Source of the DNA: Lingula anatina
Taxonomy: Eukaryota > Animalia > Brachiopoda
Direction: 5' to 3'
Assembly (NCBI GenBank): GCA_051362555.1
Contig: CM120640.1
Span: 24,042,225-24,106,224, forward strand
Length of the DNA: 64,000 bases
Positions 39,236 to 42,200 of the stretch are shown here, one piece after another. Positions within the stretch are counted from its first letter, which is position 1, and each line of letters opens with the position of its first letter. Made by a program: the position numbers and the translations under genes. Below the pieces are notes generated by a model. The model was not told the DNA's origin. It was given only the letters and a program-made list of their open reading frames with translations, and made no database searches.

Positions 39236-42200
39236 ATGTCGTCTTCGTGGAATGCAGGAAATAATGCTGAAACAAACAGTCAATCTTCCAACAACTCGCA
39301 CGAAGATGCAACGGATGAACTAGGGAATGATGCAGAAGGGGTATGGAGTCCCGATATTGAACAGAGTTTCCAGGAGGCACTAGCAATCTACCCACCATGT
39401 GGGCGGAGAAAAATTATCCTTTCAGATGAAGGAAAGATGTATGGTAAGTAGTAATGTATAAATAAGATGATTTTGCTTGGAGAAGGAAGGAATTGCAGTA
39501 TTAAACTTTTTCACCAGTTGATTTCTAAATATGGTTTGTCTCAAACCCTAAGTTATTGTTATTCTTTTTTAATATGTTGCATCATTTCAGCAGTGAATAA
39601 GTAACTGAAAGGTTAGATAAGGCCAGCCATTAAAAACTTTTATTCAAACTGTATTGAATTAAGGTGTCAAAGTATTTATAGAGGAAGTAAATTTCACTGC
39701 AAGTTGGCATTAGGATGGGGTTGATCTGGAAAGAAAATGTCAAAAGCAATCATAAGTTGACTTGTATTAGCTTTAGAACATGCTGAAAGGCAGAAAAAAG
39801 TGGGACTACATTCAGCAAAGGCATCTTTGTTTAAAAACTTTTCAAGGGTCAGCCAAATTACCATATGTGAACAAAGCCTGTGTTATTGCTATGTTGTGTG
39901 TCTCAGTTAGAGAAAGCTTTATACACTTGCAAGTTAGCAACAGTAGGGAGAATACATATGTAAATTGAGGAACAACACCACTCTAGACCCGTTTCTAAAT
40001 TTATGCCAGACAGTGAGTCATCATGGCTGAATAGACATCCTGTAAATTGACGTCAAATCCAAGTTTTAGGTGTTTACTGTAACAAGAACTCTTTAGTGAA
40101 ATAGGAGGGGGGAGGCTGCTAAAATGAAAAAAAATCTCATAAATAATTTTGTATGTATTGGTATCAATTATGTATCATAATATCACCTTCTGTCTTTCTT
40201 TCTCTTCGTCACAAACTTTTCTACATGTTTTGAAATTTTATTTACACATTATAAGTACACATTTGCCCTCCTCTGAAAGTATATTAGCTTGGTAAACATT
40301 TGATAAGTTTGAAATTGAACCTCCCTCTTTAGAGTAGGGGAAAGGGACATTTTGTCCATTTGATTCATTTTTTTCTTCATTCCCAAAAGGCCGTAATGAA
40401 CTCATCGCAAGATACATGAAATTAAGAACTGGTAAAAACCGAACAAGGAAACAAGTGTCCAGTCATATTCAAGTCCTCGCTAGGAGAAAATCCAAAGAAA
40501 TTCAAGCACAGCTCAAAGTAAGTTTATTGTAAAATATCTTTCTTTCTCTTCACTTTAAAGGACGAAATGAACTGATTGCTCGATACATCCAGTTAAGAAC
40601 TGGTAAAACACGGACAAGAAAACAGGTGTCCAGTCATATGCAAGTCCTGGCTAGGAGAAAATCCAAAGAAATTCAAGCACAGTTAAAAGTAAGTTGTTAA
40701 AATTTATTTCGGTCAAAATGAAGGGAGCCCATTTGGGTGATACTAAGAACAATATATTAAAATTCCTTTGCGATCAAAATTTTGTTTTGGCATGCCTCTT
40801 AATTTTGTGTGCATTTTTGTATCCACTGACATCTGAATACAGTACATTACCTTTTATTAATTGACAAACTAAGTTGGGTTAACACTTACTGTATTAACAT
40901 TGCCCTATCTTTGAAGCATGTATGCATTTTGTATGTTTGTGATATGTTTGAAAAGCAGTTAAAGCAGCTTCCTTACAGTTTTGTGAAGCAATCTATCCGG
41001 TGCCAACCAGTGAGGGAAGTGTCTTGCAGTCAACTGAGTAGTCTGTTGACATTTTTCAGGACCAAGCATCTAAAGACAAAGCTTTACAAAGTTTAGCCTC
41101 CATGAGCTCCGCCCAGATAGTGTCCGCTAGTGCCATCCACAACAAGGCTCTTACTCAGGGGATCGGCGGGATCCCAGCCCCCATGCCACCCACCATGCAG
41201 CCACCTTATGCAAGGCCTCCAGTAAGTAATATTGGTTCATTCATTTCAAACTGTCCCATTGCAGGATCCAACATTACGAGACCGAGCTCTACAGAATATG
41301 GCCTCTCTCTCTTCCTCTGAAATTCTGTCTGCCAGCAATACCCGCAATAATCAGGCTTTACTTCATGGGTTGTCTGGACTTCCTGTAGGGGGTCCTCGGG
41401 CGGCACCTATGCTCTACTCCAGGGCGGCTGTAAGTAGGGTTGATTTCTTGCATGCAAAACGGACTGCGAGGTCCAAAATCTCTTGCATGGCAATTCATCC
41501 GAGATGTGTAGGAGTTTGTGACTATTTTATGACGCTGCATGCTTTGTTTCTTGCCCCCATCTCTTTCCCCATTTAGACTTTCACTCTCTGTGTTTTTATT
41601 TGACTTTATTCAGCTTTTATAGTGAATCATTTCAAAGATGAAACCTATGAATCCTGCATTATACAGTTTATAATTTTTTCATACCATAGTTATTTATATT
41701 TTGAAATGAATACAAATTGGTCCTTATTTTTTATCGTCCTTTGTATTTGGTTTAGTTAACATTGTCTGATATTATTTGATCTTGCTGTTTTCAGTTTTGG
41801 CAACCAGGTCTTCCCCAGGGCGAGTAAGTATTATGTTTTCTTTAATCATGACTTTTAGTTGTTACTTTTAGTAAGCTCACATGTGTGGGGTTTCCTTGTA
41901 GGTTGAAGTTGGCTAGTGCATTGCACCAATTTGATATGCCAGAGTGATTTTACGAGTGTTAAATTTCTTAATAGACCTGTTAAGAGTCACAGTAGTGTTT
42001 TTTCTATTCATCAGTTCAGCTTAATGTGTCTACTTAGATATTGAGGAATAATTTAGACATAATGCATGAGCACTGTTCCCCGATATAACCACTAGGTTTT
42101 TTAATTTCAAAAAGGAAAAAATTGAACAATTCTTTCATACATGATATTACCATTATGCCCCTAGAGACTTATTAGAGATTTATTCCTGTAGCTAATAATC

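What the first reader, a model, noticed from the sequence alone, without database searches (positions are those of the whole stretch)
41060..41429. Second, older pair of duplicated TEAD exons, again separated by exactly 43 nt
Seen: [34 protein letters not shown]... (162 nt) and [35 protein letters not shown]... (165 nt) are homologous, both phase 0-0, with good splice sites. The spacer 41222-41264 is 43 nt, the same length as in the TEA pair despite unrelated sequence. Double inclusion would stay in frame, so exclusivity here must come from the short spacer. Established: steric hindrance between a donor and a nearby branch point enforces mutually exclusive splicing, as in alpha-tropomyosin. 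Inference: selection holds both spacers below the minimum spliceable intron size, giving a 2x2 combinatorial set of TEAD isoforms.
Basis: partly seen in the sequence, partly recalled or inferred. Interest (0 to 1): 0.78.

Follow-up and report, generated by a model that had tools for sequence, protein, structure and literature searches.

The report
Either-or TEAD linker exons, 43-base gap
The Hippo-pathway transcription factor gene TEAD of a marine invertebrate carries two old copies of one exon only 43 bases apart; RNA reads show one copy or the other in use, in all four pairings with a neighbouring duplicated exon, likely because the gap is too short to splice out, with the rarer copy likely switched on by an RBFOX splicing factor: a known kind of splicing switch, in an exon where we found no report of it.

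Summary
Confirmed. Exons 41060-41221 (a) and 41265-41429 (b) are homologous, phase 0-0 and 43 nt apart. In RNA reads from 8 of 9 listed runs, both copies are spliced, and all four pairings with the duplicated TEA exon occur. 69 reads join copy a to the next exon; no a-to-b joint reached the listing threshold of 3 reads per run. Copy b use ranged from 0 of 16 to 9 of 14 junction reads. The pair is older than the TEA pair (dS 2 or more versus 0.6). Steric exclusion is likely but untested: the 22 other introns measured here are about 130 nt or longer, yet nematodes and flatworms splice introns near or under 43 nt, and annelid copies of this exon lie 96-2256 nt apart. The equal 43 nt is probably chance. 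New here: three RBFOX motifs follow copy b, the only such cluster in 64 kb. The mechanism is a known kind; human TEAD3 has a catalogued TEA-exon pair. I found no report of a linker-exon pair. The scan noted short-spacer pairs in other genes on other DNA, none in TEAD.

The parts
41060..41221 (+). Linker exon copy a (162 nt, phase 0-0), the family-typical and usually major form
   Evidence: RNA joints from both TEA copies (47 reads) and to 41795 (44 joints plus 25 loose ends); matches family consensus
41222..41264 (+). 43-nt spacer with donor of a and acceptor of b; candidate branch adenosines at spacer nt 18 and 22 (motif guess only)
   Evidence: Sequence; no joint across it listed in 8 runs; bin depth 0.34/1.68/0/0.02 in X2/X3/X6/X8
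41265..41429 (+). Linker exon copy b (165 nt, phase 0-0), divergent: Pro at position 2, no lysine, several family-invariant residues changed
   Evidence: 11 joint reads from TEA a/b, 3 loose-end reads, 5 joint reads to 41795; depth 2-4 in three of four further runs; residue counts
41449..41541 (+). Three TGCATG (RBFOX-type) motifs at +20, +55 and +107 after the donor of copy b; predicted enhancer of b
   Evidence: Only cluster of 3 within 120 nt among 23 motifs in 64 kb; 0 in the first 130 nt of 21 other introns; Poisson 1.5e-5, post hoc. Binding not tested
40390..40517 (+). TEA-domain exon copy a (128 nt, phase 1-0)
   Evidence: RNA joints from 39443 and to both linker copies
40518..40560 (+). 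First 43-nt spacer, unrelated in sequence to the second
   Evidence: no joint across it listed; bin depth 1.89/0.09/1.32/0.4
40561..40688 (+). TEA-domain exon copy b (128 nt, phase 1-0)
   Evidence: RNA joints; 87% DNA identity to copy a
41795..41823 (+). 29-nt common exon that both linker copies join
   Evidence: Joints 41221>41795, 41429>41795, 41823>42630
39236..47506 (+). Coding span of the TEAD (scalloped/TEF-1) gene; 11 exons per isoform, 423 aa for the a/a form
   Evidence: Exon chain, (introns up to 43100 supported by RNA); best stored relative Lineus longissimus TEAD, 81% identity

Best explanation
Copies a and b are an old tandem duplicate of the TEAD exon that follows the DNA-binding domain, and RNA reads show each spliced alone with either TEA-exon copy; they are likely mutually exclusive because the 43-nt spacer is too short to splice, and copy b is likely switched on by an RBFOX protein binding just behind it. 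Shown: both copies are used, all four pairings exist, b use differs between samples, and no a-to-b joint was listed. Inferred: U1 on a's donor and U2 on b's branch point (about 18-22 nt apart) cannot assemble together, so one upstream donor and one downstream acceptor pick a single copy, and transcripts that keep the spacer carry an early stop and would be degraded. Copy a is the default; where RBFOX is abundant it would favour b's donor. Predicted effect: the first ~19 residues of the exon extend TEA helix 3, and b's proline and substitutions would break or retune that extension, changing TEAD activity without touching the YAP-binding domain.
For: Joints (X1/X4/X7/X5): TEAa>a 5/0/3/0, TEAa>b 4/2/0/0, TEAb>a 4/3/4/5, TEAb>b 0/4/1/0 (+3 loose ends in X5); a>next 23/2/11/8, b>next 1/3/0/1. 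(X2/X3/X6/X8): TEAa>a 5/2/7/2, TEAb>a 3/2/2/0, a>next as loose ends 4/3/7/11. No 41221>41265 joint and no joint skipping both copies listed. X6 has zero depth on b beside depth 8-12 on a. X4 9 of 14 versus X6 0 of 16 junction reads for b: Fisher p 1.4e-4, 0.026 after halving for mates (pair chosen post hoc). No association between the two choices (p 1.0 and 0.28; few reads). Spacer bins carry some depth; retention instead of double inclusion is what C. elegans bet-2 3a/3b shows (PMC4165533). Spacer shorter than 22 of 22 other introns measured although synonymous sites are near saturation. Donor-branch distances under 50 nt count as steric in PMC5740500. TGCATG cluster; RBFOX2 promotes human TEAD1 exon 6 from downstream GCAUG, and that exon alters the predicted helix and YAP binding (PMC9410899). 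AlphaFold of the Lineus protein: one helix 94-136, the exon starting at 118, pLDDT about 56-70 there.
Against: Depth is low (27-134 reads laid per run; about 6% or 25% of each run read) and joints under 3 reads in every run are not listed, so up to 2 double-inclusion reads per run could be hidden; in X2, X3 and X8 copy b has depth 2-4 with no listed upstream partner. The spacer depth in X3 comes with depth in the upstream intron, so it may be ordinary precursor RNA. Genome-wide minimum intron size unknown; introns of about 32-40 nt are spliced in some flatworms and nematodes. Annelid-type in-frame duplicates have spacers of 96, 167, 579 and 916-2256 nt, so a short spacer is not required to keep such a pair. 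The motif cluster is not conserved behind annelid last copies (0 of 11 within 200 nt; 2 motifs behind the middle copy of L014), and RBFOX acts in opposite directions on SCN exon 5b in different paralogs (PMC12772994). The model is of a relative, without the window's b sequence, mean pLDDT 58.
Confidence: 0.6

Rival explanations
1. The pair is mutually exclusive, but exclusion comes from regulators or RNA structure; the spacer is spliceable and its shortness is left over from a small duplication unit.
For: Annelid-type duplicates of the same in-frame exon persist with spacers of 96-2256 nt. Introns of 32-40 nt are spliced in some invertebrates. The RBFOX motifs show that regulation is likely present.
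Against: The spacer is about a third of the shortest of 22 other introns measured and is that short although synonymous sites are near saturation. A single fold of 41200-41290 gave -15 kcal/mol with no shuffle control and no clear competing stems. Whether the annelid copies are exclusive at all was not tested.
Confidence: 0.2
2. Exclusion is leaky: a+b double inclusion occurs as a real minor in-frame isoform that the shallow read sets missed.
For: Listing threshold of 3 reads per run; b reads without listed partner in X2, X3, X8. Database gene models of Lamellibrachia and Paralvinella chain two or three copies, though these may be prediction errors.
Against: 69 reads leave copy a for the common exon and none is listed to b; 14 reads enter b from TEA exons; X6 has no depth on b.
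Confidence: 0.08
3. Copy b is a decaying, nearly neutral duplicate that is spliced at a noise level.
For: b differs at positions where none of 51 aligned full-length TEADs has its residue (Q2P, K7R, A18S, Q19E, V21L, A25N, K29Q; the set was found by words from this motif, so partly circular). The one variant seen in b is non-synonymous (3 of 3 reads in X8), all four in a are synonymous. Long branch in the tree.
Against: Frame and both splice sites are intact with dN 0.36-0.44 against dS of 2 or more; b is the majority form in X4; three RBFOX motifs follow it.
Confidence: 0.07
4. 43 nt is a selected optimum, a ruler length that both spacers converged on: just long enough to hold a donor, branch point and acceptor, just too short to splice.
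For: Two unrelated spacers of different age have the same length; 43 is not a multiple of 3.
Against: Short TEAD spacers in other animals spread over 34-63 nt and 57 nt also recurs by itself; an exact match within a band of about 30 values has a chance near 3%, noticed post hoc (my estimate).
Confidence: 0.1

Closest known systems
C. elegans mutually exclusive exon pairs with too-short intervening introns: let-2 9/10 (30 nt), egl-15 5B/5A (14 nt), bet-2 3a/3b, gly-5 9b/9c, gly-6 8a/8b (PMC4165533; passages and section 6 read)
   Same: 3n-length exons, very short spacer, no excision seen, a regulator binding beside the pair (ASD-2 downstream of the second let-2 exon; RBFOX family at egl-15); unc-32 has two independently regulated clusters in one gene.
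   Different: Spacer here is 43 nt, slightly above the C. elegans minimum of about 40, so the argument depends on this animal's own minimum, which was not measured; two short-spacer pairs lie back to back; no genetics here.
Human TEAD3 tandem duplicated exon substitution, event 210, Vertebrata (PMC8373072 supplement; 2 of 5 matching rows seen)
   Same: Homologous alternative exons in a TEAD gene, at the end of the TEA domain.
   Different: It concerns the 63-nt helix-3 exon, not the following linker exon; the window's TEA duplicate is a 128-nt exon and its linker pair has no counterpart in the rows seen.
Human TEAD1 exon 6 microexon under RBFOX2 (PMC9410899; passages read)
   Same: Alternative splicing at the end of the DNA-binding domain, GCAUG motifs in the downstream intron, predicted change to the long helix.
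   Different: A 4-residue cassette exon that is included or skipped, not a swap between duplicated 54/55-residue exons; effect on YAP binding was measured there, not here.
Steric-interference MXEs in human (57 of 629 clusters, donor-branch point under 50 nt; PMC5740500 passages) and alpha-tropomyosin exons 2/3 (title seen in a reference list; details recalled)
   Same: Donor and branch point too close for joint spliceosome assembly.
   Different: In tropomyosin a distant branch point sits near the donor of a longer intron (recalled); here the whole intron is 43 nt.

Membership tests
Homologous mutually exclusive exons (tandem duplicated exon substitution) | Two adjacent exons homologous in sequence, similar length, same phases | tested here: met
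   162/165 nt, phase 0-0, 43% identity, E 7e-12
Homologous mutually exclusive exons (tandem duplicated exon substitution) | Each copy is spliced alone to the same flanking exons | tested here: met
   Upstream and downstream joints for both copies
Homologous mutually exclusive exons (tandem duplicated exon substitution) | Neither both nor none are included | tested here: met
   No a>b joint in 8 runs and no skip-both joint in the 4 runs where the next exon was laid; limit 3 reads per run, against 69 a>next reads. Rare events not excluded
Steric (too-short-intron) MXE class | Donor-to-branch-point distance below the assembly limit (under 50 nt in PMC5740500) | tested here: met
   The whole spacer is 43 nt; candidate branch A at nt 18-22 by motif only; no lariat data
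Steric (too-short-intron) MXE class | Spacer below the organism's minimum intron size | tested here: inconclusive
   Shorter than 22 of 22 local introns; no genome held
Steric (too-short-intron) MXE class | Lengthening the spacer allows double inclusion | not testable with these tools
   Needs a minigene
RBFOX-regulated alternative exon | Clustered (U)GCAUG close behind the exon | tested here: met
   3 motifs in 107 nt; only such cluster in 64 kb
RBFOX-regulated alternative exon | RBFOX binds and inclusion follows RBFOX level | not testable with these tools
   Sample-to-sample change seen, tissues not disclosed, binding untested
TEAD/scalloped family | TEA domain plus C-terminal YAP-binding domain | tested here: met
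   423-aa chain 77-81% identical over its length to 15 best stored TEADs bearing PF01285 and PF17725

The most novel reading that the evidence does not exclude
The conserved helix behind the TEA domain is an unrecognised tuning module of TEAD that spiralian animals have duplicated and diversified (window species, annelids with two or three copies, spiders in part). Here RBFOX flips a sterically locked switch to a proline-broken, lysine-free version, independently of a second switch in the DNA-binding exon, the invertebrate counterpart of RBFOX2 control of human TEAD1 exon 6, so splicing control of Hippo output at this junction would be a recurring theme across bilaterians.
Probability: 0.3. 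Interest if true: 0.65.

Novelty: new member of a known kind. Interest (0 to 1): 0.45.

Why it matters
The mechanism class is established, so a splicing specialist would not be very surprised. The value lies in three things. It is a compact natural test bed: two short-spacer pairs back to back whose four pairings can be read from short-read junctions. It points to the stretch just after the TEA domain, strongly conserved among the TEADs retrieved yet matched by only one solved structure and only over 21 residues, as a place where animals repeatedly make alternative versions, which gives natural variants for asking what that helix does. And the RBFOX motifs suggest that the splicing control of TEAD known from human TEAD1 has an invertebrate parallel.

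Tried and rejected
No genome for the window, so no genome-wide intron sizes. Search with copy b alone among longer proteins: 0 of 71 candidates at E<=1 (weak evidence). HMMER over representatives gave 2 hits: P0004, and P0123, a repetitive bacterial-type protein with no real alignment, rejected. Pfam: no family for either copy. Common origin of the two spacers rejected. Tree of 41 exon peptides, 57 columns: the annelid last copies form a supported clade (97/99), but window copy b is an unplaced long branch; AU tests rejected none of three groupings (p 0.54-0.84) and the free search was not optimal, so shared versus independent origin is open. Nucella P0065 and Patella P0013 show partial repeats that may be gene-model errors; not counted. 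One RNA fold of each spacer region, without control, was uninformative. No complex prediction was sent. Paper searches (one search returned 0 papers) listed nothing on a duplicated TEAD linker exon; one search gave no minimum intron size for molluscs, annelids or their kin. PMC9741552 passages held no TEAD mention; PMC5867882 passages gave TEAD4 exon 3 skipping only. Subscription papers, bioRxiv supplements and this species' own annotation were not seen and may already record both copies.

Full report
1. Observation. The sequence is as described. The gene is a TEAD/scalloped transcription factor on the + strand, coding span 39236-47506, 423 aa for the a/a form; its best stored relative is the nemertean Lineus longissimus at 81% identity, followed by mollusc proteins, so the animal is likely a lophotrochozoan (inferred; no genome was held). 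After the first coding exon come TEA copy a (40390-40517), a 43-nt spacer, TEA copy b (40561-40688), a 371-nt intron, linker copy a (41060-41221), a 43-nt spacer, linker copy b (41265-41429), a 365-nt intron and a 29-nt common exon (41795-41823). The linker copies are 43% identical over 49 residues. Joining a and b keeps the frame; keeping the spacer gives an early stop. The two spacers are no more alike than ends of unrelated introns (10 of 34 inner matches, null 7-19). Synonymous divergence is about 0.60 for the TEA pair and 2 or more for the linker pair, which fits 'older'.

2. RNA. Nine RNA runs were listed by species label; eight were laid, each read in part (about 6% or 25%). Reads were mostly 95-100% alike and, in the six stranded runs, from the + strand RNA. 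(X1/X4/X7/X5): TEAa>a 5/0/3/0, TEAa>b 4/2/0/0, TEAb>a 4/3/4/5, TEAb>b 0/4/1/0, plus 3 loose-end reads in X5 that begin copy b after TEA b; a>common exon 23/2/11/8, b>common exon 1/3/0/1. (X2/X3/X6/X8, 44-nt bins): TEAa>a 5/2/7/2, TEAb>a 3/2/2/0, a>common exon as loose ends 4/3/7/11. Because the two pairs are neighbours, these junctions give the 2x2 set directly: aa 24, ab 6, ba 23, bb 5 listed reads, with no sign of coupling (Fisher p 1.0 pooled, 0.28 for alone; mates can count twice and rare joints are censored). No joint across either spacer was listed, nor, one that skips both linker copies. The tool lists a joint only if 3 reads from 2 starts show it, so up to 2 reads per run could be hidden, and in X2, X3 and X8 copy b has depth 2-4 without a listed partner. 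X6 has no depth on b. Copy b took 9 of 14 junction reads in X4 and 0 of 16 in X6, two samples of one study (p 1.4e-4; 0.026 if halved; extremes picked post hoc, counted in different calls). The spacer bins hold some depth (second spacer 0.34/1.68/0/0.02; first 1.89/0.09/1.32/0.4); in X3 the upstream intron is covered too, so this may be precursor RNA.

3. Is 43 nt too short? Both spacers are shorter than the 10 other TEAD introns (154 nt or more) and 12 parvin gaps picked by eye (about 130 nt or more). Candidate branch adenosines in the second spacer lie 18-22 nt from the donor (motif guess), under the 50-nt criterion of PMC5740500 (passages: 57 of 629 human clusters). Against certainty: C. 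elegans introns go down to about 40 nt (PMC4165533, section 6) and Gyrodactylus has a mode near 32 nt (PMC4040987, passages); I found no figure for this animal's group. So steric exclusion is likely, about two in three, not shown.

4. Relatives. A scan of metagenome contigs gave 64 host loci. 24 of them hold two or three linker-exon copies: L014 with spacers of 167 and 579 nt, and 23 closely related loci, of which 8 were measured at 916-2256 nt. Gene models of the annelids Lamellibrachia and Paralvinella chain two or three copies; two unnamed open frames read through spacers of about 54 nt (P0004) and 96 nt (P0125). The copies measured are in frame, so a short spacer is not needed for such a pair to persist; whether those copies are exclusive was not tested. 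In a tree of 41 peptides the annelid last copies group at 97/99, while window copy b is an unplaced long branch, and AU tests could not reject any of three origins. TEA exons are duplicated in 12 of the 64 loci, with spacers of 34-181 nt. Short TEAD spacers thus spread over 34-63 nt, with 57 nt recurring in two different exon pairs; the double 43 is best read as chance within a narrow band.

5. A likely switch. Three TGCATG motifs lie 20, 55 and 107 nt behind the donor of copy b. The window has 23 such motifs in 64 kb, this is the only cluster of three within 120 nt, and none of 21 other introns has one in its first 130 nt (Poisson 1.5e-5, noticed post hoc; a few parvin donor positions were off by some bases). 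(U)GCAUG is the RBFOX motif (PMC12772994, passages). In human TEAD1, RBFOX2 promotes the 4-residue exon 6 through downstream GCAUG, and its inclusion strengthens YAP binding and loosens the predicted helix (PMC9410899, passages); that this exon sits just before the orthologous linker exon is my recall. The motifs are absent behind 11 of 11 annelid last copies examined, and RBFOX can also repress, so direction and factor remain inferred.

6. Protein. Neither copy matches Pfam; one solved structure, TEAD4 5gzb_A, matches the first 21 residues. AlphaFold of the Lineus protein with 51 sequences draws one helix from residue 94 to 136, the exon beginning at 118, at moderate to low confidence (pLDDT 70 then 56, then under 50). 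Copy a follows the family; copy b has residues found in none of 51 aligned TEADs at positions 2 (Pro), 4, 7, 18, 19, 21, 25, 26 and 29 and has no lysine (the set was collected with words from this motif, so conservation is overstated). A proline at position 2 would be expected to break the helix extension. Function was not tested.

7. Comparison with what is known. This is a homologous mutually exclusive exon pair by the features testable here. It works like the C. elegans too-short-intron clusters (let-2, egl-15, bet-2); membership of that class lacks the minimum-intron and lengthening tests. Human TEAD3 has a catalogued duplicate of the helix-3 exon (PMC8373072 supplement, 2 of 5 rows seen), and convergent duplication in orthologous genes is a described theme (PMC9741552, passages). 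Five searches listed no paper on a duplicated linker exon; subscription papers, bioRxiv supplements and the species' annotation were not seen. The scan's own notes had nothing at this place and, by words, similar short-spacer pairs in Argonaute and copine genes of other animals but no TEAD; these are unchecked notes and were not used as support.

8. Verdict. Real feature, interpretation largely borne out by RNA, mechanism of a known kind and still inferred. New member of a known kind; interest 0.45. The boldest reading, a recurring RBFOX-controlled helix switch in TEAD across bilaterians, has a probability near 0.3.

Noticed in passing
L001, L002, L004, L006, L013 (128-nt exon); L012, L015-L020 (63-nt exon): TEA-domain exons are duplicated or triplicated in 12 of 64 metagenome host loci, with spacers of 34, 57, 57, 61, 63, 85-87 and 181 nt (L019 not measured); stored starfish, amphioxus and fish proteins also show alternative helix-3 ends. 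TEAD looks like a repeated hotspot of exon duplication across animals.
   Followed up: partly
L014 1377-2587; L027-L064; P0003, P0124, P0125, P0004: Two or three linker-exon copies in 24 of 64 loci (L014 and 23 closely related ones) and in Lamellibrachia and Paralvinella gene models; the annelid last copies form one supported clade. P0004, of unknown origin, reads through a spacer of about 54 nt with the divergent copy first.
   Followed up: partly
P0126, P0127, P0068, P0082, P0097 (spiders): Spider TEAD models hold a partial duplicate of the first ~21 residues of the linker exon in frame before the full copy, possibly tandem alternative acceptors.
   Followed up: no
window 26154-32250 (+): A parvin-like gene (CH domain; name recalled from the peptides) lies directly upstream of TEAD; human PARVA neighbours TEAD1 (recalled), so the linkage may be ancient.
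   Followed up: partly
window about 20950-23825 (-): TspO/MBR-family exon and two different N-terminal-looking open frames upstream (21885-22202, 23394-23825; no Pfam hit), suggesting two TSPO genes or alternative first exons.
   Followed up: no
window 58089-58619 (+): Cyclin-dependent kinase inhibitor domain (PF02234).
   Followed up: no
window about 1000-13400: Long array of similar repeat units seen as recurring open-frame peptides on both strands; probably satellite DNA.
   Followed up: no
window 39223-39224: Two different upstream sequences are joined at the first coding exon (67 reads versus 4 reads in X5): alternative 5' exons.
   Followed up: no
window 40870-41059: Run X3 has depth 1-5.6 in the intron before copy a, all 5 reads with one variant base: unspliced precursor or allele-biased retention.
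   Followed up: no
window 40390-40688: TEA copy use also shifts between samples (upstream reads a/b: 3/12 in X5, 9/6 in X6, 3/8 in X8).
   Followed up: partly
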